A stretch of DNA of 35,226 bases from Elusimicrobiota bacterium (GTDB lineage: Bacteria; Omnitrophota; Gorgyraeia; Zapsychrales; Fredricksoniimonadaceae): the NCBI GenBank assembly GCA_012514595.1, contig JAAYZZ010000084.1, positions 1 through 35,226 of the forward strand. The letters run 5' to 3'. The notes beneath the pieces are model-generated. The model did no database searches, had not been told where the DNA came from, and saw only the letters and a program-made list of their open reading frames with translations. Position numbers and translations under genes: made by a program. Positions 2 through 30,000 of the stretch are shown here, piece after piece (within the stretch, counting starts at the first letter, position 1; the number at the start of each line of letters is the position of its first letter).

Positions 2-3000
2 ATCAAGCCCCACGGTCATGCGTCCGCGGGTCCTATCGGGCGAGGCCTCCCAAAGAAAGGATGCGATCCGGATGAGCTGACCGCGCTTGACATCGGCGGA
101 GGCCCTGATCGCCGGAATGATGTCCGCGTGGAGCAGGGCCCCGCTCTTTTTATCGACAGTCGCGGTGAGAAGGACCACCTCATCGACGGGAAGACCCAAT
201 CTCTCGCACAGGACCGGATGGTCCAGCCCCTCGGCCGATCCCGTGGCGCTGCGCAGCCCCCAGGCCAGATCGATCCTGTCCTCCGGGCCCGAAAACCGCG
301 CGATCGCGACCAGCTCGTCATGTCCGGCATCCGGTCTGGACCGGGTAGAGAATTTCTGAAGGGCCACGGCAAAGGAGGCCCCCCTCACAACGTCGAACGC
401 AGGATCAAGGACCTCCCGGGGCGAGTCGAGAGACAAGACCTCCGAATGCCTCCCGAAACGACTGCGCGCACAAACAGGCGGATCAAAAGAGACCGCCCCC
501 TTGGTCCTGTATGCGGCCAATAGGGGATCAAAACAGTGCCCACACTTTTCCGGAAAACATTCATCGGGACAACAATCAAAGAAACGGTCATAGGCCATGA
601 GGGCGAGCCTCGAACGATCAGAGGTATCCGCGATCCGGATCACGACACGCTGCCCGGTCCACGCCCCGACGGAGAGAACATCCATGACCGATGTCGCGCT
701 CCCGCCCTGTTTTTCGGGACCCGACAACGTGACCAGGCCCCAAAGATCCAGGATCTCGGAGATCGACAGGGAAAGACGCGCGAACGCGCTCGCCGGACGC
801 GCATGAAGACCGTGATCCCAGGACACCACAAAAGACTGCTCGAGCACATCGGATCCTTGTCCAGAAGAACGGACCGAATGGGCGTGCGAGGACCGCAGAA
901 GGGCCAGGACCTGCGCCAGACGGGAGGCCTCCTCGCGGCCATAGGCCCTGTTATCGGACTCGAACGCGATCACCGACGGAAGGCACGCGCTGGTCAACAG
1001 GTTGATCGGAATGATGATCTTTTGATCGATCACGCACGCCGCCAGGAATTCATGCCGCGAGACCGCCCACAGGACCGGAAACTCGTGCGCCGCAAGATCC
1101 CCCGCCGGCATAAAAACAAAGACATCCGGCACGTTCAAAAGGGCCTTGCGGTTCTGCTCGGACAAACGGGTCAGAATGATCGCCGAAAGTTCCGCCGCCG
1201 GGATCAGGACCCCCTCGGAAAGGACCGCACGCGTCCTCCGCTCCGCATCAGGGCTCATCTTCCCGTCCGCGTAAACCCCTTCACCGCAGCCATACGCAGG
1301 CTTCGCGTTATCCTCCGAAGAAGAGCTCGGCGGGATCGTCGACAGACCGGCCGCAGGCGCCTGAGGCCTCTCCGTCACCTCGAGCCCCTGGGTATAAAAA
1401 CGGGCCAAGGCCCCCCGGGCAGTCCGGGCCTTTGCATATTCTGTCAGATGCGTCAGGATCTCGTGACGGATCTCCTGATCGGTCTCTTCGCACTGAAAAT
1501 ACGTGCGCTCCAGGAAAGAAACAGCGCCCGCCTTGTGCAAGACGGACTGCAGACCGATCCAGATATCCTTCCAGGGGATCCTCATCTCCTCGCTCATCTT
1601 TCTAAAGACATCCAGCTCCCTCGCCTGGGTCACGCAGCACCCAAACGCGATCATGGCCACCTCAAAAGTGCCGTCGGTGCGCCAGACCACGAAGTCCTCC
1701 AATGTCAGCTGGACCGGGAAGAGGCGCATTTCGCTCAAGTGATCAAAGGCCACCATCATCCTTTGAACGCTCCATCCCTGTTCATACCCGAGCAGCCTCT
1801 CGAGGATCATGCGCACATTCTCAGGCATTCTCTCAAGATCGATCTTGCGCAGCTCCCTTTCAAGGCCCAGCCGATCAAAGGTCCTCACCTTGCGGTCCAG
1901 ATCGCAGACCAGCGCGATCGCTTCATAGGCGGCCTCTTGCGGCATATAAAAACGGACGAGGGCCCTGACCAGTCTTTGACGAATATACGCCGCATCCTCC
2001 GGGCTGATCGGGGCCTCCTGAAAAGAACGGGTCATCAGGACCTCGGACACGCTGGGATTATGCCCCAGCTTGCGGATCTTCATGCCGCAATAAGCCCCCT
2101 CGCTGATCTCCCGGTAGAACAGCCGCCGGGATATCGGGCCTCGCAGGTAATATGCATTCATCTCGTCGAGCTGCTGGACCTGACGGAACGCCGTTCTGGC
2201 AAGAGACAGGGCCATGGCCGGGATCTCAACCCCGGAGAGACGGATCAGGGCCGCGATCTCCTTGATGACCGCGATACGGATATGATTGGACCCCGCATAA
2301 CACACAGGCGCCCGGATCGTGGTCCGCGGCGACAGGTCCATGATGTCCTCATTCAGCTCGCCATAATCCGTCTCCTCCTCGAGGTCCCGAACGTGCTTGG
2401 CGATATCCAGAGAGAAATCAGGCCGCACGCGAAATACGTCGCGGCAAACATCCTCCACATATTTCCTCATCCTCTCCGCCGGCCCTGTGCCATGACAGAC
2501 CTTTGTCCACGTCACGATATCATTCCGCATGATCTGCAGATTGCGGATAAAGCCCCGGGCCATGCTCATATCCACCTCGTGCCAAGGGATAATCTTTCCC
2601 AGATCAAAAGAACACACGGATCCGGAAAAGGTGTCATACCCATAATTCTCCGTCTTGACGTCCCAATCGACAATGCCGCGGGCGATCATCGAGCGAACGG
2701 CGAGAAAGAACTGCGCGATCAGGAATTCCGCGGTACCAAAAGCCCCGTCTTCGATCGCGTCCGCCAGAATCCCCCGGAACCGGCGGGCCTTCAGCTTCTC
2801 GTCGTACATCGCTTCCTTCAGGACCTCGGGGACATACTTCTGCACCACCGCCCTGGGAATGACCATCTCGTGGACCGTTCCGTCGCCCTCCCGGATATTC
2901 ACCGCAAGAGAAGAAATGATCCGGTAACCTATGACCTTGCGTCCGAGACTTTCCTGGCCCAACCGGTACCCGGAGATCGGACCTTCAGGGGACGGCATCG

Positions 3001-6000
3001 CGATCACATCGCGGTATTTCTCGCAGACATCCTTGAGGATCACAGGATGAGAATTGTCCTCGTTGATGTAGACCGCGGCATCGCTTCCGCCGGAGAAATC
3101 ACGGAAGACCTCCCCTTTCAAGGATTGACGGAACGCCTGTTCAAAGGCCTGGTCCACCTGCTGGATCGACAGGCCATGTTTTTTGAGGACTGTCTCAAGG
3201 TCCTCAAGACGGAGGTCCTTCCAAAGCCCCGCGATCGCGGCGGCCAATCGATCAACAGGATCAGAAAAGCCCTGTTCCAATCCATACCCCTCACGATAAA
3301 AGGCAAAATGGAACTCCAGGACATTCTTCCGCGTTTCCACGCTGACCTTAAAGAGATCCCGGCCTTCCAGCATTTTTCTCGAAAGAACCCGAACACAGAC
3401 GATCTCGTTATGATCGATCCCGAAATCAGAGGCGAACGCGGGATCCCGAAGGGCGCCCCTGATATGCGCCTCGATACCGGGCGTGACCTCTCCGTTGAAC
3501 GAGGGGGCCACGGCAAAAGAATAGGTCCCGCGGCCTGGCGCCTCGGGCATCATGGCACGGTCCAAAAGACCCCCGAAGGCACCGGCCCTCGCCCCGTTCA
3601 CTCGCGCCACCAGGGTACGGCCTTTGGCATCACGATATCTCCCCCGCAGGCGCCAAAGCTCCCCATTTGCGCGGGTGAGGGCCAAATTCTCCTTGTGGGT
3701 CATCTCCACAAGAGCGGCCTGCATCTCATGGGCGATATCTTGAAGCGGGGCATCGGCAGGAAGAAGAACGGCAACGTTCCCGTCGGAAAGAAGGGCGTTC
3801 ACCGCGCGCAGGCGCCATTCCGGCGGGGCATGATAGAAGGTGACCCTGCGCCGGAGCAGAAGTTGCCAGAACGCGTTGTGCCCCATTCCCAGGACCCGCG
3901 AGGCCATCGTCGCGGCCCGGAGGATGCGACGATCAGAAAGAGGAACGGCGATCCTCCTCCCTTCAGAGAAGACCGCCTCCACACCCCCCAGACGCGCGAT
4001 CTCGCTATTGACGATCTCCGCGCCCTCTCCGCCGGCGGCCGGGTCCCGGCCGAGGGGCTGCGGGACGAAGAAGCGATCCCCCCGGGAACTCTCGACGAGG
4101 ATCTTCCCGTCCGCCAGGACCGATACCAGGGGACCGGTTATTTTATCCCGTGTGCGGAAGCCTTCCTCTTTCGGCGGAACCTGCCAGGGCGTCAGGCAAT
4201 CGCGGTCCCCTTCAAAGGCGAGTCTGAGCCGGGACAACGCCTCGGCCCCGGACCCCCCCGGGACGATATTATGCGCGGCGTTGATGGTGACGGACAAGGA
4301 TCCGTGATCAAATGACCCAAAGGCCTGTCGACGGGCCAGATCGGCGGCCTTGGCCCTGTCCTCCTCGTTGATCCCTGCATAACGGAGAGCCCGTTCAAAC
4401 GCCAGACAGATCGCCTCATTGAAGAGCGGCTGACCATCGACATGGGAGACATAAACAACATCAAGACAGTCCTTAAGGGTCTGAATGATATTCCCGTATC
4501 GACGGGCATAGGTCTCGACCCTCTCCTCGCTCACGCGACCATTCCTGAAAATATCGCCGATGACGTCATAGCGGGTATGGAACAGATGGAAGGACAAAAG
4601 CGCCGACCCCGGGGCCCCAGCGGCGACCAGGGCGTTCAGCCGTTCGGCGGCGGCCTGGGCGCGCGCGTCATCCGGTTCCCATCCCCGGGTGGTGAAGCCG
4701 AACCTCCGTCCGGGCTTCTGGCGATGGGCCCATTCGACGATCCCATCGATCCCGACCCCGAAAAAGGGGTCCGACCAGTTCAGGGGATCATTGGACTCCC
4801 AGCCCCGGAAAACATGCCGGTCCGAAGCCAGGATTTTTCCGATGACGACCGGCAGCGGATAGTTGCGCTCCCGGCCGGAGCGATTGCCCTGGATGCAGTG
4901 ATGACAGGCCCAGCGGCATCCCTCGCCCAGCGTATCGGAATCCAGCGACAGGCCATCCAGATCGAACCACCGGAACCAGTTCTGCTCGCCATGGCTCTCG
5001 AGATCAATGTGCTGCGGGTCGGGCATGCGTTCCGCCAGGGCCGCGGCCCGTGCCATCTCCTTTTCCGTCGCCGCGCCGGCCTCGATCTTCTCGAGGAGGC
5101 CCCGGACCTCCAAGGACACTTCGCGGCCATGGGAACTCAGGATATCCTCATAAGCCCTGAACATCCTGTCCATGCGTTCCATCTCCTCCCTCCCCGGGAT
5201 GAAGGAGATCAAACGCACACCGGCCAGATCGCCCAGGGTCACAGGCCGCTGTTTATCCAGATCCTCAAAAAGGCCGCAATATTCAAAGGCCTGGACGATG
5301 AAGACATGATCCAAGACCAGCTTCGGCGAGAATCCGATCAGGACCAGCTTCCGGGCGATGCGGATATACTGATCGTGAAGGGTCTGCGGATCATATTTCT
5401 CCAGAGAGAAGCGGGGACCCACATAGGGCACCAGGGTCAACTGCCCGGTCACGACCACATTCCCCTTGAACGTCCCCGGTCTCCAGGACGGCGAACGGAC
5501 CAGGTCATGCCCCCCCATATCGGTGGGCGATATGGCCCCGAAACGAAAGGCCTTCGCTTCGTCCCGGACCACGAACACGCAACTGGCCTTCTCGGCCCGT
5601 CTCATCCTTTGACGTACCACATCAAGCGGGACCGAGAGATGATCGAGAAAAACAACGCCCTCACGCAGAACGGTCACCGACAGGGAGCTGGCCATGGAGC
5701 GCCAACGGTCGATCCCTCGCTGCAGGATCGCCCTTCCGATGAGGAAAAGAACGGGGACCAGAAGCCCGATCATCCAACTTCTCAGCATGACCGCTGCCAG
5801 AATGCCCGCAGCAAAGACCGTGAATTCCAGGATCGAGAAGACGACGGGAACAAAGGCCGGGCCCTGCTCCTCGACCGTCCTGCCCTTTGCGGTCATGGCA
5901 ACGAACGCCATGGCCGCCAGCGGCAGGTCCACAACAAAAAAGATCATCAGGAACGCCTTGATGAAATCCCCGGCATACGAAAAGACCAGGGTCTCCCGCC

Positions 6001-9000
6001 CCCACAAGGCAAGGACACCGATCGCCACCGCCGAGGCAGTTCCCAACAGCATGATCCATCGCGGCAGGACCCATCCGCCTCGGGCCGCGTCATCCGAAAC
6101 CTCATCGGCGAAAAGCCCCTCTCTGGAAAGAACCCTCTCCCGGACCGTCCGCACATACGGACTCTCCCAAACGATATGGGCCGCGACCGAACTTTCCCCG
6201 ATCCGGTTCAAGGCCGAGAGGCGGTGCGTCCCGTCCCAGACCAGGACCTTTTTCTGCCCCGCCCGGATATCAAGACGGATCGCCCGTCCGTTCACGCCCC
6301 GGAGATCCCCCCGCCGCAGCTTCTCGGCGAGAACGTCCGCCTCTTTCGGAGTGCGGACAATATCTGCATGACGCGAATCGGTAAGGTAGGCGACAGACAC
6401 CTGACGGACCTCGCTCAATTTGGGAGAAAGCGGATTCTCCGCAACATATCGGTGGTGTTCATAGGCCGCGCACTCGGCCAGATACCGCAGGGACCGTGTC
6501 TGCCCCTCTCGTGTCCCGGGCATGGGCGCGGGACGCTTCCCCCCGGCGACCCTGCGAGCGACCCGGTCGGCAAAGGCATGGAGCTGGGCGTAGGAAGGCC
6601 GATAGCCACCACGCTCGCCGGCGAACGCAACGGCCTCATGGACCAGGGACCGGGCGATCTCCTGGGGGGATCCCAGGACCACGACCAGGCGTCCCTTCTC
6701 CTCCAGATGGACGGCCATGACCCGAACACCGTGACTCCTCTCAAAGACACGAAGCTTTCGATCAAAAACAGGCTCCTCATCCGACGCCACCACGCGCGCC
6801 CGCGCCAAGACATCGGAAAAGACCTCGTCATTGCGGTCCCAGGCCGCCATCCGGTCCGCCACGCCCCGACGGACCACCATGCCCGCCGCGGAGTCCGGAA
6901 GCAACAGAAGGGCGTCCTCGCGTTCACGGATCAGGACCAGAAGTTCCCGACGGGCCTCTTCACTTGGGAGCGCGGGAATGCTCCACGCCGGGTCGATCGT
7001 TCTCTCATCCCGCCCATCAGTACGGCCCCCCCGGCCCGCGACCCCCAGGACCTCCCGAAAATCATCCCTCGACGCCACCCGGCTCAACGCATCCACGATC
7101 CGACGATGCGATCTGGGAAGGACCCCCCGTCCGTGGCCCCTGATCCCGTGACGGGGATCAAAGTAAAGACCAAACTCATCCACGGTCCCCTGGCGGTCAA
7201 AAGACGTCTTATGATGACCCTTGTACCCGCGATCGGCATACCTCGCGATCAGATGATCGCTCACGATAAGGATCGACCACAACAGGGCCGCATCAGGATC
7301 GCGCGGCCTAAACCCGAGATAATAACTGTGATGACGCAAGACCTGCCGCAACCAGCCGGGGACATCCACTCCCTTCATGGTCAGGACGATGACCGTCAAC
7401 TCGGCATGCAGCACGGCGAGGATCCGGTTGAGCCATCGCGGGGTCCTCAGGCAGCCACCAAAATAGAGCGAAAGAGGCCAGACCTTCTTACCGATATCAT
7501 GGGCCCGTCCGATCCGGCGCAGCAGGTCCACTCCTTTTTGGTCATACCCCAACTCCCCCGCCAGGAGCCCCGCCATGTCCCCGACGCGCGCCGATTCCTC
7601 TCGATGAAATTCCGGGTTCATAAGGACGAGCTCTTCCTCGCTCAGGTCCTCGAGACGATGGCCCTTGCGGATCCCGCGGATCCTTACCCAGAACGCGAGG
7701 ACCGCGATGACAGGCGCCATCAACAGCATCACAAGAACGGTCGCGCCTTCCAAAGCGCCGATCAAAAACGTCCGACGGACCACTCTCCGGCCGACGTTAT
7801 CAACGACGATATCGAAAAGGCGGCCCAAAAGATAATAGGCGGTCCCGAAAATCCCGACGGCCAGGACAGCGGATCCCCCGGGCGACAAGAGAAGGTGATC
7901 GGGATCCATCCCGCGCGACAACAGGCCGTAACCAAGACCCAGTCCCGCCGCGAGGATCCCCCCCAACGTGAACACGGCCTTTAAAAGCACCGCTCCTTCG
8001 CGGGCCCCGGACTTTATTCTGGGCGCATGGACCGCCGAGATCGCCCGGAAAAGGCGGAGCGCAGGGAGATGCTCAAAGGCGGTCCTGGGGGAAACGATCA
8101 CGGTCTCGGGGATCTCCGCCGCTTCCTCATGCCCGACGTAAATACGGGTCAGCTTGATCGGCGTGTCGATCCCGGCGCGCAAGAGGTCCTGGCTCGTGAG
8201 CGAAAGCATGCTGCGGTCGTTCCCCGGACGAAGACGCGTCCCCAGAGAGTCCCCCAGGATCAACACATGATGCCAGCCCATCCGGCGGATGAGCGTCAGG
8301 AGCGCCTCGGCCTTGGGACGGCAGATGCTCACACAGTCCCAATTCTCGAACACCTGCATATAATCCGGGATCAGGCCTTCCGCCTTGGCCCCTTCCAGAT
8401 CTGCCCTGACCTTCTCGGCGATCTCGCTCCGGAGGACCGCATGTTCGGGACGGGTCATGAAGAGGGCATATTCGATATGGTCACGGATGATCACCTGGAT
8501 CCCCGGCTCATTGGGCCGGACCTGGTGGCGGGTGAACACGTCACTGATCGCATCCGCAAAGATGGTCCGGATGATCTGGTGGCTTTCCTGATCGAGCGCG
8601 AAATGAAGTTCCGGAACGGCGCGGATCTTTCCCCGACCGACAATATGCGCCTCGTTCCCGCTGTTGGTCAGCATCCAGTAGGCCGTGCTCCCCTCTCTCC
8701 AGTGACGGACAGCGTCTTCCCCCCCCAGGGACGGCAACAGCCTGTCAACGGGACGACCGGTGATCTGCACCAGAGGAACCCCGGACCTCAAAAGAGCCCG
8801 GACCGCCTCGGCCATCTTCGGGCGGATCACCGGCTCGCGGTGATCGCGCATCACCCCGTCGAAATCCGAGATCACCGCATCCACGGTCGAAAGGATCGTG
8901 GGGGCATAAAGGAACACCGCAAAAGGATCCTTGAGCCCATGCCGAACGGCGGTCCATTTCCTGAGATCGATCGCATAAGAACAGATCATGTCTCTCCGAC

Positions 9001-12000
9001 GGGACAAGACAACGGACTCCCCGTAATTCTTCAAGAGACGCCCGATCAGTTTCTGGTACCGGGGCTTGCGGTATCCCTGCGGATCCCCGACCCTGTCGGG
9101 CGCATGGGAGCAATACCTGTCGAACCCGGCCTCGGTCAGAAGATGGATCAGCCCGTTCAAGAGAAGGCGGCCCGCGAGAAGATAGGAACCCGATTTGGAG
9201 AAATAATATCCATCGCTCACCGCGATATTGTTCTCCAGGTCCGCCCGGAAGGCCACGACCCCCTGGGGACGCCCTCCCACAAACAGCACCAGGGCGTCCC
9301 GATAGATCTCGTTCTTGTGGCTTCGACGCCAGGTGCGGTCGAAGAAACGGACGGCACGTTCCGGATCCTCAGGGATGGTCCCCTCCATATCTTTTCCGAT
9401 CTTCTTCAAGAGAGAAAGTCCGGAGCGTCTCTGCTGAAAACCCATCGAGGAGTAGAGGACAAAAGACATCTTCTCCTGATAGCGGCGGGCAAGGTCCTCG
9501 TTCAAGGCCTGCAGGATCGTCGTGGTCCGTGAGGAGATCCCGGGCAGGATCGCAATGTTCTCCTGAAGTCTCTCCAGGACATGGCGATTGAAGGAATGGT
9601 CGAACCCGACAAGGGCCCCCGCTTCATGGAGGAAACAGCGGATCAGCGTCCTTCCGTCGGTATGCAGACCGGGCCGGATCCAGATGACCCTGCGGCCCCG
9701 CTGGAATGAATTCGCCGCCGGGACCGGCATCTCCGGAGGACCCGTCGCCAGGATCGCCTCGCGCAACGCATCCGCGGCATGAGGGAACTCCCCGTCGTCA
9801 AGAAGCGCCACCGCGATCTGCCGCGCCTCGTCATACTTGGGATCATGCGGAGGCAGGATCCCACGCGAGGATCCCTCGAGAAGGTCTGCCAGATATCTTT
9901 CCTCTTGCGAGCTCAAGGCTTCTTCACTGCAGGCCATGTCCTTCGCCGGATCCGCTCTGCCATCCGGCCTCGAGGTGCGCGCCAGGCTCTCCAGTTCCCG
10001 TAGGAACGAACTCTCCTCCATCGAATCGATATGCACGATCCCCATCGCCTGCGCCAGGAAGGGTCTGACGCGGTCCCAGGCCTCGCCCTCGCTGGTCATC
10101 GGGACCACCCGGGTCCCGTCCTGCACGCTTCCCATGGACGTGAACTGCCGGTACACCTTGCGCCAAAGGCTCGGGAGAACCTCGATGAGATCGAACATCC
10201 CATGATCAAGAACATCGACGCTGCTGCGCGTCGCATAATGATAAAGCGTCTTGACGAACATCATCAGGACCCACGGCGAATAGGGCCTGCGAAGACCCTC
10301 CGCCTTGGCCTTGATCACCGCCAGCTTGGCCCGGATCCCCTGGATCTCGGCGCACAGGACCTCGGCGGCCTGTGCCTGATCCGGATTCGCCTGGGGCCCG
10401 CCGGAGAGACCGAACGACGCGGAGATCTCGTCGGCAAAAAGCTCGTGGGCCAGAAATTTCCCCATCTCCGGCAAGGGACGGTTGCGGACGTCGAGGGCCA
10501 TGATCTCGACATCCACGAAATCCCCGAACTCGTCGATCACAAAAATGGTCCGGACCTTGTCCACTTCGCTCCAGGATGCCAGACCCCGGCGGGAGGCCTC
10601 CTGGAGGAACGCGCGAATGAATCGGGAAAAACAATGAACAATATCATTATCCAGATCCAGCTCCTCCAGACGCAGGGTCCGGGAAAACCCCTCGATCCCC
10701 AGCGCAAGGGCCGACCCCTCATCAGGAGACCAGGTCCCGCCGGCGGCGAAGGGATCGCCCTGCCGCAGGACGCGCTCAAGTTCCTGGATGCCTTCTGAAA
10801 AATGTTCGATCGTGTCCCCGGCGATCTCTTCCGCATCCGGAGCGGTCCAGGGTCCGGGCAGCCAGCGGGTCCGGATATCCTCATGGATCGCCCGGAACAA
10901 AAGAGCCGTCTTTTTTAGATTCAGATATGCCTGCCGGCGAATGGCCAGACGCCACGGCCAGACCACATCGCGCAGCAGGGTCCTCAGGCGGGCCGTGATC
11001 TCACCCCGGACATCCCGGACCCGGGCGATCACAGGCCCCAGGTCCTCCATGAACGTCCACTCCCGGTCATCACACCCGATCAAAAGAGCCTCCAGCGCAT
11101 GGAACTCCTTGAGGAACACATCCCACTGGGCACGATACCTGGCCTCATCAAGCCCCATCGCGGACTGAACGATCCGCCGCGCCTCACGACGGATCACCTT
11201 CATCCGGCTCCGGACCCCGATGCGAACCGCGAAATACTCGTTCCAGCGCTCCATCTGGGCACGGAACGCCTGCAGGTCGGCCATGATCGTCCGGACATCC
11301 TCCTGGATGTCCTCCTTCATCAAAAGCGCTCCGGCGCGCTCCTTGATCGTGCCCAAGGCCTCCCGAACGATCTCCTCAAAAAGCGGTGTCGCCCCGTGGG
11401 AACGCCTTAAGGCCAGGAACGCCTCCACATCCCGGTCGATCCGTTCGATCGCAGAGATCAGGACATCCAGAGGCCCCCGGTTCTTCTCCAAAAATCTCCG
11501 AAGCGGACGAAAGATCTCCTCGGCCCGGGAGGTCCCTTCGCAGAACTGCTCCCTCACCATCTGTTCAGCCCCGCCCGAGGACATCCGCGTCAGCCCTCTC
11601 TCGATCTCGCGAAGCTCGACCATAATGGGGGCCAGAAAAACAAGACCCAGCCGGCTCCGCAGGTACTCAAGCGCCGTCATCTCGCGATGGAACGATCCCA
11701 AATATATCCGGATGATGCCCTCGACCGCACTGCGCAAAAGGCCGACCTTTCCCTCGACCCAGACCCGGATGATCTCATAACCCGCATTCTCCGGGCGACG
11801 GTCGCGCCCTTCCCGATATCCGAACAGCTTGCTCTTGATGGCCCCCTGCCTGTCCTTGTCCATCCGCCGCTCGCGGATGCCGGCGCGCAGCTCCTGGACC
11901 TCGCGCACGAACATCTGCTGCAGATACCGCATCCGGTCAAAGAGCATCTTCCGGCGGGAGGGATCCTGCAGGACAGATTCGACATCCCACGCCAGAAGCG

Positions 12001-24000: not shown

Positions 24001-27000
24001 GCGTGCTGACAAAGGCATCGATATCGAAATGGTCCGCGAACACAACGATCCGCTGTCCCGGCCTTGCGGAGAGAAGCTGGGCCCTGAAATCCTGTTCAAA
24101 GAAATCTTCCGGCGGATCGACGGAGATGGGGGCTCCCCGGCGGACCTGCGCGAGCACGCGCTCCTTCAAGGCGGAATAGGACGGGAATTCAACAGGCTGC
24201 GGGTGTCGGGAAGGACGGGCCAAGACAAAATCCGCGCTCCAGGACCGGTTGTGTTCCTGATGGATCAGAAATGCCTCTTCATCGGTGATCTTGGGATCGT
24301 GAACGGACAAGAACAGGCGGGTCAACTCTGCGTCACGAACATCCGGGGGAAGCCAGGTGATATACCCATGCGCGGCCACGAACTCGCGCAGCGGCATGCC
24401 GCCATGCCGGATCGCCTCATTCTCCGAACGCACGGATGTCTCAAACAGGATCTCCTCTGCGGATTCGCTGTCCCCCCGGGCCAACGCCTCCTGATAATCC
24501 TGCCAGTTCGGCCCCATCAATCCCGGGACACCCCGGGACCGATCCGCGCTGTTTTCCCCCTGCTCCTCACGCGTTGTCCGGGAAGAACTTCCCTGGGGGA
24601 CGATGATCGTCCGGCCTTTTCTCCGTGATCTCTTCGAAGGTTTTCTCTCGTTCTGGCCGACCGGATCCAAGACCGACGCCCTGTCCGTATCGGAAGAACG
24701 CCCACGAGCGGCGCGGCGTGCCGAGAAAGCACCGACCGTGCCAACAACAACAAACCCCCAGGCCACCTGCTCCCACCAGGGCTGAACACAGTCTCCCAGA
24801 CCCGTCAGGGAACAAAAGACAAGAAATCCGCCGAGAAAGACAAGCACCGAAAATGCGACCGCAAAAATATAGGCTCTGCCGGAACGACTATCCCGGAAAC
24901 TCGTCCGGAAAGGATCTTCCAGAACGCCGGCCCCCTGCGAAACAAAGAGAGGAATGGCCAGCAATATGAAAAGACCCGAGAGCAGGCCCGCGAGCCCCCA
25001 GAAGATATGAAGTCCCGCCAGAAGCGCAGTCCCGCCAAGCCAAAGGAACAGAAACGGTCGCAAAGAAACCGCTCCGGACCTCGAGTCCAGATCCCGGATG
25101 TTCCTCTTGAGGGTGCCCCGGGTTTCCGGATCCTCGACGAACTTCGCGACGCTCCGGCAGATCGCGACATCCCCGTAGCAATTGGGGGAGCCTGTCTCAT
25201 CGCACGACGAGTCCATGATAGATGCAGGGGATGTGCTGATATGTACCGTCGCGGGAACGATCCCGTCCTCCTCAAAAAGACGCTTGAGGAAACTTTTGAT
25301 CGTGTCCTCATCCGCGACGTCCGAACAGATATTGATCACGATCCTCTGCCGCCGCGGCCTCTGGGCCCAGGAGAAATAATCCGCAAATGTCGTTTTATGG
25401 AATTCTGCGACGTGTCTCTTGAGGACATCCAACCCCTGATCCTGATCTCCAATCCCCGGCACGAAGTTCACCCAAATATGCCGACGGATCCTCCCCTTTT
25501 CTGCCAGATCCATCGCGATCGTCCCCGGGGCATAACCATGGGTCCGATCGCTCCAGTACGCGTCAGAATGCAGGTCGATCCAAAGCTGGTCATTCCCCGT
25601 CTCCGAGATCTCTCCTCTTTCGATCGCATCATCAAAATAAAGATCGCTCTTGGCATGACTGTCAAAAATATAGACCCCGAAACCGAGATCCGTATTGATC
25701 CGGACATCCTGCGCCATTTCCGAGAATTCCGCCCCGAAATTTGGCGAACGCCTCACATCGGACGCGTGGCCTTCAATATAATTTTTTCGCAAATACCAAG
25801 CCTGATAAAGCCGTTCGACAGCAAGATTTTCAGCATGACGGCCACCGTGGGATTCATGGACCAAGACCGAAGACGGGGTGGGATTCTCATTCGTGGCAAT
25901 AAGGACATACCCGAGGAGATTCGCGCCGTAGGCGCTCTTCACCGGACCCGCCTTGACCCGGTGGGCGGCCAGCATCTCGCGCAGGCGAACCGCCTGAACC
26001 GTCTTTCCGGTCGCCTCGTAGAAGGACAGGACTGCCTTGACCCACGCCTCATCCCCCGACACCCCGCGCCAGCCCGCAGACGGATCCTTCACAACCCCCG
26101 ACCGGATCAGGCGCTTTGCCTCGCGAACGACATCCGCCTCGCTGAACCCCTTGCGAGGCTTCGCGCGATCCGTCGCGGATCCCTCCTGACCCGAGAGAAC
26201 CCGGGCGGTCCTGGCCTTATCCTGACGTTCCTTGACCTGGTCGTAGGTGCGGTTGTCGGGCCCGAACTGCGGCTGGGAAAAGTACTTGTTGGCATCATCC
26301 TCGATGGCCCAGCGCACATCGATCGGGTCCTTCTCGCCCTTCTGGAAGATCTGCGCAAAGACCTCGCCCGTGTGGATGACCTTGCCCTCATCGTAGACCG
26401 CACCGACAAGGCACGGACCCATGGTCGTGATCTCACGCGCCCGCACATGGAGCAGGATCGAATGATCGGCGATGGACCCCGCCTCCAGGTGCGGACACCC
26501 GAAGGCAAAGACACCCTTTCGGTTCGCCAAAAGAGCTCGAAGGCCCGGGCCACAGTCCGCGATCACGTTCCCGTTCTCATCCGGTACCACATCGAACAAC
26601 GCCTGAAGGGCACGTGCCATCTCCGAGAACACCCCGCCGTCATCCATGGCCAAAAGATCATAGAACGCAGGGACAAAGGTCGAATTCATCCCCGTGTCGA
26701 TGAAGATCATCTCCTCGGGATGCCCCAAGTCGCCGAACCCGACACCCATATCCTCGCGGAAAGACCGTGCGGCATGGAGGACCGCGCACCAGTCCGCAAA
26801 GGTGGTCCTGTTCTTGAGCACGTCCCCGTTCGTGGCCCAGGATTCATCGCGGGCCTCGTCGGTAAATGTCGATCCTCCCACCAGGATCGAGTTCTCGCTC
26901 AACCGTGCGGCCAGATACACCGGGGTCCCCCCCGGGGCCCGGACCGTAAAGTGCCGCATCAGGGCATCGATCCCCGCGGGGGTGTAGCGCCGCACAAAGA

Positions 27001-30000
27001 ACGACATGGCGGCGCGCCCTTCCGCGTCCTTGTAGAACGCCAGTCCGTCGGGGTTTGTCGTATCGTTCCCCACAACGCGAGGCTTCTCGCGGGCCACAAG
27101 GATGCGTCCCGCGGCATCGGTCTTGATGAGACAATTGTTGCGCATCGCGTGGTCGGCAAGGGACAGCATCTCATCCGTGATGTGTTCCCGGACCCCGCAG
27201 GTCACCAGGCCTTCAGCGCGCCCGTCGAAAAGCGTGGCATTTGTCGACAACAGCATCTGATCATTGGCGCGCAGGATCCAGCCCGGCTCGGCAAGACGGA
27301 ACTGGCAGCTCTCAAGGATCGTGCGGGCCATGTAGGACACAAGGCCGGGATTGACAATCAGGTGCTTGCCGCCCAACCCCAGCGCATGCGTGAAGGGTTC
27401 ATTACGCGTCCCGCGGCCGGCCAGCTGAATATGAAGCACGCGGGCCGTGTCTTTGTTCAGGCCCAAACGGGGCAGGGCCTGTTCGATCGCGATGTGGATC
27501 TCGGCCACCGAGGCATTGAGATTGTCCTTGAAGACGCCGCTCGGATTGATGACAAGAATGACCGGAAGGTCTGCCGGGTAGGCGACACCCCGAAGCGCCT
27601 GGATCGCCTGGCGGTTCACATCCAGCATCCACTCTTCCGTATCAAAGACCAGCGCGTCGAACTGGGCGCCGCCCTGCATGAAGACCGTAAAGTTCTCCCA
27701 CATCCGGCGCGCCGCGGCCAGACGGATCTTCAACGTAGAGGATGTGGATGGATCATTCTCCATCCTCGCGAAATAATCCCCATGTCTGCGGGTGATCGGT
27801 CTGGGGGCCTGGAACCCTTCGGGCTTCCTCAGGATCTCATAACGGTTCGGGTAGTCTGCGACCACCTCGGCCTGCCTGCCCCTGACGCGGTCCGCGATCA
27901 TCCGCGTGAACCCGAGCTCCCGGCCCAGGCGCACCGCCATCTGACGCTTGGTCACGAGGGTCCGCGTTCTGGCCTTGAGCCTGGCCTCTTCATCCTTCTG
28001 TTCTTGAGGGTTCAACACCAGGGCGTTCAGGGCCGTCATGAACCGTTGCAGAAGATCCTCATGGGCCAAAAGGGTCCGGGGATCCTCAGGCGCGACATGA
28101 TTGATCGCCGTTCGGGCCGTCTTGGAAAATTCTGCCGCGGCCGGGATCTTGTCCCTTTCGGACTCAAAGACGGCCAAGAGCATCCTGAACAGGATCTCGA
28201 ACTTGAGGCCCGCGCTGAGGACATCATTTCCCTTGACCGCATCGATCGTCCGTTGCGTATCCGTGAGATCGTCGTGCCCAACAGGCTTGTTCGTATCTCC
28301 GTATCCCTGCGGATGGCTCCGGTGCCACTTCCAGGCATCTACGATCGAATCGCGGGTGCTCTTCACCGGGGCCCACCCTGTCACCTGCTGGAACCGGCCC
28401 CCCTTCTCGGCGGTCAAGACATCGGGGTCGCCCTGACGCTTGTTCTCGACTGAGATCCGAGACGCCGCGTCCGGGATATCCGAGGAGACGACCTCGACCA
28501 CAAGATCTCGGATCTCCTTGGCCGACTTGGGATCGCTGGTCCCAAGGTTAAAGGAATCGCTGACGCCGCCCCCCAGAAGATAAACAAAGGCGCGATAATG
28601 CGCATCCGCCAGGTCTCGGCCATCGATATAATCGCGGACCGTTGTTCCGTCGGCCGTCTGGGCACGTTCCCCGGGGATCGTGTCGCCCGTGATGCGGTCC
28701 TTCACGCTCCCGTCGAGATGAATGCTCTTTCCGTTCGCGAGGGTCTTGAGGAACCAGGCGATCAGATGGGTCTCGGGATCGTGGTCCTCTCCCTTCACTC
28801 CCTCGTCAAAGGCGCCCGCGACGTTGAAGTACCGCAGACACACGGAGCGGATCCCCTTGCGGGCCGCATACTCCCTCAGGATCAGCTCCACTTCATATTT
28901 GTTCTCGCCATAAGGATGTATCGGCCGCAGCGGGAAACTCTCATTGATCCCCTGCCCTTCCGCCAGGACCGGTTCCCCATAGACGGCGCAGGAAGAGGAG
29001 AAAATGTAATACGGACACCCGAACTCGACCATCACGTCGAGAAGATTGAGCGAATTGGCGATGTTGTTCACGTAATACTGCGACGGCATGTTCAGGGAAT
29101 CCGGCACAACGATATAGAACGCGGTATGGACGACCACATCAGGCCTGTAGGCATGGAACGTCCGGCGCAGGGCCTCTTTGTCGGCGAGGTCCCCCTCGAC
29201 AAAGACCGCCTCGCCGGGAACCGCGGCACGGTGCCCCCCGGAGAGATTGTCGAAGACGACCACCCGGCAGCCTTGTGCCAGGAAATAATGAGAAAGGAAG
29301 GTCCCGACATATCCGGCCCCGCCCACGATCAGGACGGTCTTCCGGGCAAAATGAAGGACCTGGGCCAACTGCGAGGCCATGTCCCGCTTGACAGGATCTC
29401 TCAGCGCCGAGAACGCGGCCTCATATTTTTCCGCAAGGTCGCGGTCCGCCAGGGCCGCGGCCTCATATTCTCCCAGCTGACGCGTATCCAGGAGGGTCCG
29501 GCCCGCCCGGGCAAAGGCCATGGCCTTGTCTGCTGTGGCCGGCTCGGATTCGAACACGTTCACCAGGAACCGGAACAGGATCTCGAACTGAAGGTCCTTG
29601 GAAAGATATTCGTGAGAAGTCACCGCCTCAATCGTGTTCTTCGTGTCCTGGACCTCGGTCGGCGGAACAGGGACTTCCTCATCCCCGTAGCCGGTGAGAT
29701 GTGTCTTCTGGAACATCCACGCGTGACGCAGCGAATCGAGGAAATTGGTCTCGGCCCTCCAACCCGTCGCCTGCTGGAGCCGGGCGCTCGAGGCGATCAA
29801 GCGGGCCGGGTCCCCGCGCCGGGCGTTCTCGACCCTCAGACGCTCCTCGATCTCGGGGAACTCGTCTTTGAGGACCGTCTTGACCCCCTGGGCGATCTGC
29901 TTCGAGGAGTACCCGTCCGCGGTCCCGCAGTTGAACGGTCCCTGCAGGCCCTTCACGAACGCGGCCTCGTGAGCCTTGGCGAGATCCGTGGCGTCGATGT

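What the first reader, a model, noticed from the sequence alone, without database searches (positions are those of the whole stretch)
5745..25055. Five hydrophobic clusters punctuate the giant protein, separating blocks of otherwise cytoplasmic-type enzymes
The TM clusters lie at 24724-25055 (~4 helices), 21908-22048 (1-2), 16955-17030 (1), 7690-7990 (3-4) and 5745-6075 (~4). Most are followed by Arg/Lys-rich stretches (ARRAARGRSS..KRSRRKGR; RRVWELFKMRRYRRGRRVAR; RIRGIRKGHR), consistent with the positive-inside rule. If the cluster counts are even, all enzyme blocks stay on one face. The single helix at 16955-17030, together with an odd count at 7690-7990, would instead place the ~2,900-aa block 8000-16950 on the opposite side. 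Repeated membrane stitching of soluble enzyme domains is unusual. From memory, it resembles the many-TM architecture reported for metagenomic giant proteins.
Basis: partly seen in the sequence, partly recalled or inferred. Interest (0 to 1): 0.65.

Follow-up and report, generated by a model that had tools for sequence, protein, structure and literature searches.

The report
Membrane staples in a giant bacterial protein
The five greasy stretches are real membrane-spanning segments that pin an enormous multi-enzyme protein of an uncultured digester bacterium to its membrane. This design is already described for giant proteins of the Omnitrophota, so this is a new example rather than a new kind of thing.

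Summary
**Observation: confirmed.**
- The whole window lies inside one stop-free minus-strand ORF of 11,741 codons, open at both ends.
- That makes 10-14 helices, about 2.4 % of residues.
- Outside the clusters, the highest score is a GalE Rossmann strand. About 15,000 aa of related soluble proteins score nothing at the same threshold.
- The clusters sit between enzyme modules, not inside them. A free-standing homologue ends 9 residues before cluster 1. Another giant ORF follows the same module with three TM hairpins.

**What it is.**
- The only relatives are rare Omnitrophota proteins.
- Three papers already report that Omnitrophota giant proteins carry many TM helices, at about 1 per 400-950 aa and about 2 % of residues. 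These include "multi-enzyme metabolic" giants rich in GT5, HAD and HD domains.
- So this is a new, largely orphan member of a known kind.

**Topology: unresolved.**
- Cluster 3 is an unpaired helix with 9 Arg/Lys in the next 20 residues, so one block must change sides.
- A Lys+Arg count favours aa 4440-6065 as the outside block (36 in / 11 out).
- No dedicated topology predictor was available.

The parts
2..35224 (-). One stop-free ORF of 11,741 codons, open at both ends: an internal piece of a gene longer than 35 kb
   Evidence: Six-frame scan. SNVs from independent metagenomes: 52 of 80 at codon position 3, 53 synonymous.
24719..25057 (-). TM cluster C1, aa 3390-3502. A 46-aa uncharged stretch (hairpin or one long helix) plus two more helices, followed by the basic tail ARRAARGRSS and an unstructured linker
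   Evidence: AF2 secondary structure, low confidence. A free-standing homologue, P0001, stops aligning at aa 3381.
21908..22051 (-). TM cluster C2, aa 4392-4439. One strong 28-aa helix plus a Pro-rich weak segment (aa 4421-4439) that is probably not membrane-spanning
   Evidence: Hand sum of the Hessa scale for the weak segment is about +6.8 kcal/mol. The segment is not helical in the AF2 model.
16955..17029 (-). TM cluster C3, aa 6066-6090: a single unpaired helix
   Evidence: KD 2.72, GES 2.38, Hessa -0.78. No second hydrophobic segment nearby.
16895..16954 (-). Arg-rich tail after C3 (RRVWELFKMRRYRRGRRVAR): 9 Lys/Arg in 20 residues
   Evidence: Sequence. Flank counts.
7685..7990 (-). TM cluster C4, aa 9079-9180. 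Two Gly-rich marginal helices plus one strong 29-aa helix, followed by RIRGIRKGHR
   Evidence: Three long helices in the AF2 model, low confidence.
5723..6061 (-). TM cluster C5, aa 9722-9834: three to four helices
   Evidence: Four long helices in the AF2 model, low confidence.
31655..33391 (-). Nucleotidyltransferase plus P-loop kinase module, aa 612-1190; Walker A motif at about aa 974
   Evidence: 36 % identity to Omnitrophota P0001. The relative P0007 is named uridine kinase/NMN adenylyltransferase. Motif.
29750..31018 (-). First GalE-like SDR epimerase, aa 1403-1825, apparently split by an insert
   Evidence: Pfam PF01370/PF16363. PDB UDP-glucose 4-epimerases, E 6e-66.
28289..29347 (-). 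Second GalE-like SDR epimerase, aa 1960-2312, full length
25076..25849 (-). Module A, aa 3126-3383: a conserved domain of unknown function lying directly before C1
   Evidence: 47-57 % identity to P0001, P0005 and L002; 39 % to L004.
22535..24538 (-). Modules B (aa 3563-3665) and C (aa 3665-4230, DHH-phosphoesterase-like), lying between C1 and C2
   Evidence: Exhaustive HMMER hits P0002-4, P0014, P0015 and P0019. P0003 is named inorganic pyrophosphatase/exopolyphosphatase.
20417..21208 (-). GT5 (starch/glycogen-synthase-like) domain, aa 4673-4936
   Evidence: PF08323, E 1e-11. Sequence.
17195..18022 (-). PPP-type metallophosphatase, aa 5735-6010, with GDLHG and GNHE motifs; ends about 55 aa before C3
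   Evidence: PF00149, E 3e-10. PP2A hits in PDB. Motifs.
8246..8884 (-). Weak HAD-like hydrolase, aa 8781-8993, with a DFDGV motif
   Evidence: PF00702, E 0.02, below the Pfam cut-off. Motif.
7481..7594 (-). Weak HD-domain signature, aa 9211-9248 (GRAHDIGK), just after C4
   Evidence: PF01966, E 0.02-0.04, below the Pfam cut-off. Motif.
4514..4927 (-). Weak radical-SAM-like region, aa 10100-10237, with CxxxCxxC at aa 10103
   Evidence: PF04055, E 0.02, below the Pfam cut-off. Motif.
1400..3484 (-). Conserved module, aa 10581-11275. In another giant ORF (L004) it lies directly before a module-A copy and three TM hairpins
   Evidence: 36 % identity over 702 aa.
623..841 (-). PTS HPr domain, aa 11462-11534, with intact GLHARPA active site
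   Evidence: PF00381, E 1e-6, above the Pfam cut-off. Sequence.

Best explanation
**What it is.** The window is an internal 11,741-codon piece of a gene longer than 35 kb. It comes from an uncultured bacterium of anaerobic digesters and wastewater reactors. Its only detectable relatives are giant and multi-enzyme proteins of Candidatus Omnitrophota.

**What the clusters are.** The five hydrophobic clusters are true alpha-helical transmembrane segments, 10-14 helices in all. They lie in the junctions between enzyme modules.

**How it most likely works (inferred, not shown).**
1. As the chain is made, each cluster is recognised and inserted into the cytoplasmic membrane.
2. The huge polypeptide is thereby stapled to the membrane at intervals of roughly 500-3,000 residues.
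3. C1 and C5 are best read as even-numbered helical bundles with Arg/Lys at both ends. The same holds for hairpins in relatives (L004, P0002). This keeps the flanking nucleotide-sugar, phosphatase and phosphotransfer modules on the cytoplasmic face.

**The exception.** C3 is a single helix with a very basic C-terminal flank, so it reads as N-out/C-in. It must be balanced by another odd cluster. One block is therefore either truly translocated, or one hydrophobic segment does not span the membrane.
- The charge count favours C2 as the partner, which puts aa 4440-6065 (GT5-like plus PPP phosphatase) outside.
- The alternative is C4 as the partner, which puts aa 6091-9078 outside.
For: **Shown**
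- One ORF under purifying selection.
- All strong hydrophobic segments fall in five clusters and exceed both the shuffle null and the soluble controls.
- Helices are 19-29 residues long, uncharged, and rich in small-xxx-small motifs.
- Basic flanks are present.
- Clusters lie outside the conserved modules:
  - P0001 homology ends at aa 3381 and the protein stops soon after, while C1 starts at aa 3390.
  - The exhaustive search aligns modules A, B and C but nothing across C1.
  - The stretch after C1 is predicted to be unstructured.
  - The PPP domain ends about 55 aa before C3.
- The design recurs in relatives without sequence similarity between the TM segments:
  - L004 follows module A with three TM hairpins with basic ends.
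  - P0002, P0004 and P0015 have TM hairpins next to modules B/C.
  - The C1 and L004 hairpins are no more alike than shuffles, z below 1.
- Named relatives are all Omnitrophota.
- The sequence is found in digester, bioreactor and wastewater metagenomes.

**From the literature**
- V. archaeovorus giant ORF: 39,678 aa with 42 TM helices (PMC10066038).
- 94 % of 916 long Omnitrophota proteins have TM helices or a signal peptide, with about 2 % of residues in TM helices, plus a multi-enzyme class (10.64898/2026.06.07.730766).

**Topology**
- Enumeration of Lys+Arg bias over all models.
- Cytoplasm-dependent chemistry at both ends of the window, so overall parity should be even: GalE NAD sites at the N-terminal end; radical-SAM-like Cys motif and intact HPr at the C-terminal end.
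Against: - No dedicated topology predictor (DeepTMHMM, TOPCONS) could be run. The calls rest on my own re-implementations of the KD, GES/TopPred and Hessa scales, with scale values taken from memory.
- Several helices are marginal (C1d, C2b, C4a, C4b, C5d).
- The AF2 models have pLDDT of about 39, so they inform only on secondary structure. One model draws aa 3388-3435 as a single 48-residue helix, which would make C1 odd.
- C4 cannot satisfy the positive-inside rule with three spans.
- The favoured outside block holds a GT5-like domain, which would be odd in the periplasm.
- Free-standing relatives of several modules start with signal-peptide-like sequences. This warns that localisation cannot be inferred from enzyme type in this lineage.
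- The organism is not identified. GC is 61 %, against 40-52 % in most relatives.
- The ends of the gene are not in the window, so the N-terminal orientation is unknown.
- Transcription evidence is only scattered short contigs in RNA libraries.
Confidence: 0.72

Rival explanations
1. C2 is a two-helix hairpin and C4 has three spans. The roughly 2,990-aa block between C3 and C4 (aa 6091-9078, window 8000-16950) then lies outside, and everything else is cytoplasmic.
For: - Straight helix counting gives C3 = 1 and C4 = 3.
- This keeps the GT5-like, PPP, HD-like, radical-SAM-like and HPr domains inside.
- The block has no domain that demands the cytoplasm except a weak HAD-like match.
- Overall parity is even, as required.
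Against: - It places the 9-Lys/Arg tail after C3, the 4-Lys/Arg N-flank of C4 and the 5-Arg loop inside C4 on the outside.
- It scores 33 Lys+Arg in / 17 out, against 36 / 11 for the best model.
- C2b has four prolines, a Hessa sum of about +6.8 kcal/mol, and is not helical in the AF2 model.
Confidence: 0.2
2. A polyprotein or gene-fusion relic. The giant ORF concatenates genes that were once separate. The TM clusters with basic tails mark ends of mature chains released by proteolysis, or are leftover anchors with no role in organising a single chain.
For: - The same modules occur as separate genes in relatives.
- P0001 ends where C1 begins.
- Module order is shuffled between giants.
- Many free-standing relatives carry N-terminal hydrophobic signal or anchor sequences.
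- C39 and S8 peptidase domains are reported in other giants and proposed to cleave them (10.1101/2023.11.21.568195).
- P0022 has repeated RSE(T/M)R linkers that could be processing sites.
Against: - No peptidase domain in the window.
- No repeated linker or cleavage motif in the window.
- No match to C-terminal sorting-signal models.
- The signal-like N-terminus of P0001 is not retained in front of the homologous module in the giant.
- The reading frame is kept open over 35 kb, and a compensated frameshift in one variant suggests selection for a continuous product.
Confidence: 0.15
3. The hydrophobic stretches are buried core helices or strands of soluble domains, not membrane segments.
For: - A known soluble element, the GalE Rossmann strand, reaches GES 1.41.
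- A few other soluble-looking segments score 1.0-1.4.
- Marginal helices (C1d, C4b, C5d) fall in this range.
Against: - Eleven segments score 1.67-2.45, well above the soluble maximum.
- Uncharged runs reach 25-46 aa.
- The segments lie between homology-defined modules, not within them.
- 15,126 aa of related soluble proteins give no such segment.
- Basic flanks are present.
- The weak chance matches of the clusters are to membrane proteins, above all transporter helices.
Confidence: 0.04
4. An assembly chimera or a non-coding artefact: the long ORF is not one real gene.
For: - Logan contigs are short and low in depth.
- One X4 contig shows a 9,712-nt skip with only 21 matching letters on one side.
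Against: - 35 kb without a stop in one frame only.
- A third-position SNV excess.
- Contigs from several independent runs tile the window and span C2, C3 and C4 without indels.
Confidence: 0.02

Closest known systems
Giant ORF of 'Candidatus Velamenicoccus archaeovorus' LiM, and the 'Archaeovorin' class of Omnitrophota giant proteins (Seymour et al. 2023, PMC10066038; West-Roberts et al. 2023, bioRxiv 10.1101/2023.11.21.568195)
   Same: - Tens of kilobases of single ORF.
- TM helices scattered along the chain at about 1 per 900 aa (42 in 39,678 aa there; 10-14 in 11,741 aa here).
- GT5 glycogen-synthase-like and sugar-phosphate enzyme domains.
- Few annotated domains and poor conservation.
- Methanogenic reactor or digester habitat.
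- The same unresolved question of which side the enzyme domains face.
   Different: - No detectable sequence similarity to GTDB representative genomes over the C-terminal 5,000 aa.
- No HEAT, TPR, SecA-DEAD, C39, SLT or dockerin domains within the window.
- GC of 61 %.
- Two GalE domains, an HPr domain and a PPP phosphatase are present.
'Multi-enzyme metabolic cluster' giants of Gorgyraeia/Omnitrophota, with TM-only or SP+TM topology (bioRxiv 10.64898/2026.06.07.730766)
   Same: - Many different enzyme Pfams tile one polypeptide.
- PF08323, HAD, HD and radical-SAM domains are among the common families.
- About 2 % of residues lie in TM helices.
- Sequences are mostly singletons while the architecture is conserved.
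   Different: - Those are complete proteins from groundwater and Baltic genomes, analysed with DeepTMHMM. Here only a fragment is available.
- The habitat here is engineered anaerobic systems.
- Only about a third of the residues here are assigned to any family.
Replicase polyproteins of nidoviruses (coronavirus nsp3, nsp4 and nsp6 hydrophobic clusters). This is a functional analogy recalled from memory (Oostra et al. 2008, J Virol) and was not tested here.
   Same: - Clusters of hydrophobic helices punctuate a very long chain of cytoplasmic enzymes and tether it to a membrane.
- Odd numbers of predicted helices resolve to even numbers of real spans, because some hydrophobic segments do not cross the membrane.
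   Different: - Viral and proteolytically processed.
- About 7,000 aa long.
- No homology to this protein.

Membership tests
Omnitrophota giant membrane-anchored proteins (Archaeovorin / multi-enzyme class) | Single ORF of 10,000 aa or more (West-Roberts 'giant': more than 30,000 aa) | tested here: met
   11,741 codons without a stop, open at both ends. The 10,000-aa threshold is met. The 30,000-aa threshold cannot be judged because the window ends inside the gene.
Omnitrophota giant membrane-anchored proteins (Archaeovorin / multi-enzyme class) | Numerous TM helices spread along the chain, about 2 % of residues | tested here: met
   10-14 helices in five clusters, about 2.4 % of residues, using home-made scale scans. 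DeepTMHMM was not available.
Omnitrophota giant membrane-anchored proteins (Archaeovorin / multi-enzyme class) | Many different enzyme domains, typically sugar metabolism (GT5/PF08323, GT1, PMM, HAD) | tested here: met
   Above the Pfam cut-off: PF08323, PF01370 x2, PF00149, PF00381. Weak: HAD, HD, radical SAM. GT1 and PMM were not found in the window.
Omnitrophota giant membrane-anchored proteins (Archaeovorin / multi-enzyme class) | Encoded by an Omnitrophota genome | tested here: inconclusive
   All named protein relatives are from Candidatus Omnitrophota MAGs. One MAG with two related giant ORFs is titled Planctomycetales. No flanking marker genes are available. The source was not found in GTDB representatives or JGI contigs.
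Omnitrophota giant membrane-anchored proteins (Archaeovorin / multi-enzyme class) | SecA-DEAD-like domain (in 'most' full-length giants), HEAT/TPR repeats, C39 or S8 peptidase | tested here: not met
   None appeared in Pfam scans of all 11,741 aa at E of 0.05 or less. The gene continues beyond both ends of the window, so absence from the whole protein is not shown.
Alpha-helical integral membrane segments (Sec/YidC-type insertion) | Uncharged hydrophobic stretch of about 19 aa or more, with hydrophobicity above the range seen in soluble proteins | tested here: met
   KD up to 2.72, GES 1.67-2.45 against a soluble maximum of 1.41, and Hessa sums down to -2.7.
Alpha-helical integral membrane segments (Sec/YidC-type insertion) | Positive-inside charge bias giving a self-consistent topology | tested here: inconclusive
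   Overall bias is strong: 36 Lys+Arg in / 11 out for the best model. C4 is frustrated with three spans, and several parities are ambiguous.
Alpha-helical integral membrane segments (Sec/YidC-type insertion) | Experimental membrane integration and topology | not testable with these tools
   Needs reporter fusions, fractionation or proteomics.
C-terminal sorting signals (LPXTG, PEP-CTERM and similar: motif, TM helix, basic tail) | Match to a sorting-signal model, located at the C-terminus of the protein | tested here: not met
   The NCBIfam scan of all five clusters at E of 1 or less gave no sorting-signal family. The segments are internal to the ORF.

The most novel reading that the evidence does not exclude
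The unpaired helix C3 and one odd partner cluster really do thread a 1,600-3,000-residue block of enzyme domains across the cytoplasmic membrane. The candidates are the GT5-like glucan enzyme plus PPP phosphatase, or the dark block with a HAD-like domain. One polypeptide would then work on both faces of the membrane.

Free-standing Omnitrophota relatives of these modules carry Sec-type signal-like N-termini, even on radical-SAM/B12, UDPGP and kinase enzymes. Together, these points would mean the lineage exports "cytoplasmic-type" nucleotide-sugar and phosphate enzymes on purpose, for instance to act on a prey or host cell.
Probability: 0.2. Interest if true: 0.75.

Novelty: new member of a known kind. 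Interest (0 to 1): 0.38.

Why it matters
- Giant membrane-threaded multi-enzyme proteins of Omnitrophota are among the largest proteins known, and nobody knows how they are made, folded, inserted or used.
- This window adds a sequence-orphan example that recurs in many anaerobic digesters and wastewater reactors. Such systems can be sampled, enriched and studied by proteomics.
- It offers a compact test case for a question the literature leaves open, namely which side of the membrane the enzyme blocks face:
  - five well-separated clusters;
  - one unpaired helix that forces a change of side;
  - cytoplasm-dependent chemistry at both ends of the window.
- The finding itself, TM clusters punctuating the protein, is expected for this class.

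Tried and rejected
**Homology searches that found little**
- Word-indexed search of aa 8968-10000 (C4, HD, C5) and of aa 5650-6849 (PPP, C3): no hits at all.
- A 5,000-aa query timed out.
- Locus scans with the C-terminal 5,000 aa in GTDB genomes and JGI metagenomes: no relatives.
- Profile A1 in JGI metagenomes: none.
- PDB sequence search of aa 8001-11741: nothing.

**Structure**
- Two single-sequence AF2 runs gave pLDDT of about 39. They were used only for helix boundaries, and no fold search was attempted because matches would be meaningless.

**Ideas tested and rejected**
- C1 being homologous to the TM hairpins that follow the same module in L004: similarity is no better than shuffles.
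- The clusters being internal copies of C-terminal sorting signals: no NCBIfam match.
- A repeated linker or cleavage motif such as RSE(T/M)R, seen in P0022: not present in the window.
- Internal promoters: no enrichment. Terminator-like hits number 27 against 19.5 +/- 5.3 expected, and several sit in the T-rich TM-coding stretches, so they are most simply a composition effect.
- Amino-acid composition of the six soluble blocks: no difference that would tell inside from outside.
- BLASTP of the protein against itself listed no internal repeats, not even the two GalE copies. I therefore do not trust that negative result.
- The plus-strand ORFs listed by the ORF finder are shadow ORFs of the minus-strand gene.

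Full report
**1. What is in the window**

A six-frame scan shows one stop-free frame on the minus strand covering window 2-35224. That is 11,741 codons, open at both ends. All other frames are broken.

The long plus-strand ORFs listed by the ORF finder are shadow ORFs. Of 80 SNVs seen in contigs of independent metagenomes, 52 fall on codon position 3 of the minus-strand frame and 53 are synonymous. One variant carries a +1/-1 pair seven bases apart that restores the frame.

The gene is therefore real, under purifying selection, and longer than 35 kb. Amino-acid position i maps to window coordinate 35224-3(i-1).

**2. The observation**

Three scans agree: Kyte-Doolittle, a Hessa-scale sum, and a TopPred-style GES scan. 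The scale values are from memory and the implementations are mine. Every strong hydrophobic segment lies in one of five clusters.

| Cluster | aa | Content |
|---|---|---|
| C1 | 3390-3502 | A 46-residue uncharged stretch plus two helices |
| C2 | 4392-4439 | One strong 28-residue helix plus a Pro-rich weak segment |
| C3 | 6066-6090 | One helix |
| C4 | 9079-9180 | Two Gly-rich marginal helices plus one strong 29-residue helix |
| C5 | 9722-9834 | Three to four helices |

Against composition-preserving shuffles:
- Six segments reach KD 2.4 or more, with 0.6 expected.
- Seven windows have a Hessa sum of 0 or less, with 0.7 expected.

More telling are two controls:
- Within the protein, the best score outside the clusters is 1.41. 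This is the beta-1 strand of the second GalE Rossmann fold. The clusters hold eleven segments at 1.67-2.45.
- Ten related soluble proteins, 15,126 aa in total, and a 4,458-aa related ORF give no such segment.

**3. TM segments or buried helices?**

The clusters lie between conserved modules, not inside them.
- An Omnitrophota protein of 960 aa (P0001) aligns to aa 612-1190 at 36 % identity and to aa 3126-3381 at 47 %. Its alignment ends nine residues before C1 starts, and the protein itself stops soon after.
- An exhaustive HMMER search of aa 3120-4319 against 1.84 billion representatives found only 20 proteins. They align to three modules: A (aa 3142-3383), B (aa 3563-3665) and C (aa 3665-4230, DHH-phosphoesterase-like). 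None aligns across C1.
- The 65 residues after C1 are charged and come out unstructured in the AF2 model, which is of low confidence.
- The PPP phosphatase domain ends about 55 residues before C3.

The design recurs in relatives.
- A second giant ORF (L004, 4,666 stop-free codons) follows its module-A copy with three TM hairpins, each with Lys/Arg at both ends.
- P0002, P0004 and P0015 have TM hairpins next to modules B/C.
- The hairpins are no more similar in sequence to C1 than shuffled sequences are. Position and character are what recur, not sequence.
- Most module-A relatives have no TM helix after the module. The stitching is therefore a feature of particular proteins, not of the module.

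Scans of the clusters against Pfam and NCBIfam give only insignificant matches. They are to membrane proteins, above all transporter helices, and none is to a sorting signal.

I conclude that the clusters are TM-type segments. The "buried helix" alternative gets about 4 %.

**4. What the protein is**

Pfam, PDB and motif evidence gives these domains.

| aa | Domain | Note |
|---|---|---|
| 612-1190 | Nucleotidyltransferase plus P-loop kinase | |
| 1403-1825 | GalE-type epimerase | Apparently split by an insert |
| 1960-2312 | GalE-type epimerase | Full length |
| 3126-3383, 3563-3665, 3665-4230 | Modules A, B, C | C is DHH-phosphoesterase-like |
| 4673-4936 | GT5-like glucan enzyme | |
| 5735-6010 | PPP metallophosphatase | GDLHG and GNHE motifs |
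| 8781-8993 | HAD-like | Weak match |
| 9211-9248 | HD signature | Weak match |
| from 10100 | Radical-SAM-like | Weak match; CxxxCxxC at aa 10103 |
| 10581-11275 | Conserved module | Shared with L004 |
| 11462-11534 | HPr | Intact GLHARPA |

About one third of the residues are assigned; the rest is dark.

Related giant ORFs carry GPI, PMM/HAD, NAGPA, metallophosphatase, GlgE, GT1, GT5 and amylase domains. All named relatives come from Candidatus Omnitrophota MAGs. One MAG is titled Planctomycetales.

The window sequence occurs at 95-100 % identity in bioreactor, wastewater, biogas-fermenter, digester and landfill metagenomes. Fragments of it also turn up in RNA libraries, which is weak evidence of transcription. 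The source genome is not in the GTDB representatives or the JGI contigs that were scanned.

**5. Comparison with what is known**

- Seymour et al. (PMC10066038) report the V. archaeovorus giant ORF, with 39,678 aa and 42 predicted TM helices. They also report multiple TM helices in most Omnitrophia giants.
- West-Roberts et al. [quoted passage not shown] They note that glycolysis-type enzymes are predicted to be extracellular, "but an overlooked transmembrane" may mislead, and that TMHMM and DeepTMHMM disagree.
- A 2026 preprint (10.64898/2026.06.07.730766) finds TM helices or signal peptides in 94 % of 916 proteins of 10,000 aa or more. About 2 % of residues lie in TM helices. It describes a "multi-enzyme metabolic" class in which PF08323, HAD, HD and radical SAM are frequent, and finds that most such proteins are sequence singletons.

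The present protein fits this description in density (about 2.4 %), domain type and orphan status. It lacks, within the window, the SecA-DEAD, HEAT/TPR, C39 and dockerin domains. It is a new member of a known kind.

**6. Topology**

Cytoplasm-dependent chemistry sits at both ends of the window: NAD-dependent GalE domains acting on UDP-sugars at one end, and the radical-SAM-like Cys motif plus HPr at the other. The total number of spans should therefore be even.

- **C1.** It reads well as four spans, in to in. There are 4 Lys/Arg before it, 4 in the middle loop and 4 or more after it, and none in the two short outside loops.
- **C3.** It is a lone helix with 7 Lys/Arg in the next 15 residues (9 in 20). 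It therefore reads as N-out/C-in and needs an odd partner cluster.

I enumerated all inclusion and exclusion choices for the marginal helices, in both orientations.

| Model (helices in C1, C2, C3, C4, C5) | Block outside | Lys+Arg in / out |
|---|---|---|
| 4, 1, 1, 2, 4 (best) | aa 4440-6065 | 36 / 11 |
| 4, 1, 1, 3, 3 | aa 4440-6065 and aa 9181-9721 | 32 / 12 |

Points bearing on the choice:
- The weak second segment of C2 has four prolines and a Hessa sum of about +6.8 kcal/mol. It is not helical in the AF2 model.
- C4 with three spans cannot satisfy the positive-inside rule. Some hydrophobic segment may not span the membrane, as is known for coronavirus nsp3 and nsp6 (from memory).
- AF2 draws the 46-residue stretch of C1 as one helix. 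If that were a single span, C1 would be odd.

The topology is therefore unresolved. The robust statement is that C3 forces a change of side.

A further caution concerns the free-standing relatives P0001, P0003, P0004, P0008, P0010, P0013, P0020 and P0022.
- They begin with Sec-type signal-like sequences.
- P0010 nevertheless carries a UDPGP domain.
- P0013 carries radical-SAM/B12, UDPGP and GHMP-kinase domains.
- In this lineage, localisation cannot be read from enzyme type.

**7. Verdict**

- Mechanism (inferred): co-translational insertion of helical bundles staples a multi-enzyme chain to the cytoplasmic membrane, with one block possibly exported.
- Novelty: a new member of a known kind.
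- Interest is moderate to low for the finding as stated. It would be higher only if real two-sided topology, or deliberate export of cytoplasmic-type enzymes, were shown.

Noticed in passing
Related proteins P0001, P0003, P0004, P0008, P0010, P0013, P0020, P0022 (N-termini): Free-standing Omnitrophota relatives of the giant's modules start with Sec-type signal-peptide-like sequences, for example MTKNRIISIVLIITFIALDAAWA/YP and MKALAVVLIVAFLCQEISFA/EF. Yet P0010 carries a UDPGP domain, and P0013 carries radical-SAM/B12, UDPGP and GHMP-kinase domains. This is a localisation puzzle.
   Followed up: partly
P0005 / P0022 (Omnitrophota, 2,106 and 5,345 aa): A repeated linker motif of the form LPxASxLxPxExRSE(T/M)R separates modules and could be a processing or junction signal. 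It is absent from the window.
   Followed up: partly
window 25076-25849 and 31655-33391; loci L001/L003, L002, L004: Module order is shuffled between relatives. P0001 joins the aa 612-1190-like and aa 3126-3381-like modules directly, whereas the window has about 1,935 aa, including both GalE domains, between them. L004 places the aa 10581-11275-like module directly before a module-A copy.
   Followed up: partly
window 29750-31018 (aa 1403-1825): The first GalE-like domain appears split. The N-terminal half matches up to about aa 1612, and a C-terminal piece matches at about aa 1738-1825, which suggests an insert of about 125 aa.
   Followed up: no
window 623-841 (aa 11462-11534) and about 4895-4918 (aa 10103-10110): An HPr phosphocarrier domain with intact GLHARPA active site, and a CxxxCxxC radical-SAM-type cysteine motif, are both embedded in the giant protein.
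   Followed up: partly
window 434-441: One metagenome variant (run X1) has a 1-base insertion behind 434 and a 1-base deletion at 441. This is a compensated frameshift that keeps the giant ORF open.
   Followed up: no
window 8170 / 17883: A single contig in run X4 suggests a 9,712-nt skip that is not a multiple of 3. Only 21 matching letters support it on one side, so it is probably a spurious or chimeric contig.
   Followed up: no
window 524-34000, plus strand: One plus-strand frame carries a chain of long shadow ORFs, up to 1,436 stop-free codons, antisense to the giant gene. SNV periodicity shows that the minus-strand frame is the coding one.
   Followed up: yes
window 24972-25091, 21984-22003, 16987-16999, 5755-6004 (minus strand): Terminator-like hairpin plus T-run matches cluster in the TM-coding stretches. 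The total, 27 against 19.5 +/- 5.3 expected, is not significant. The T-rich Phe/Leu codons are the likely cause.
   Followed up: yes
locus L006 (ENA ERZ18626419, GC 61 %): The closest relative of module C (P0002, 43 % identity) lies on a contig with the same high GC as the window. It is an ordinary-sized 1,358-aa protein with a TM hairpin, a basic tail and a GT2-like region. It may come from a closer lineage than the low-GC Omnitrophota MAGs.
   Followed up: partly
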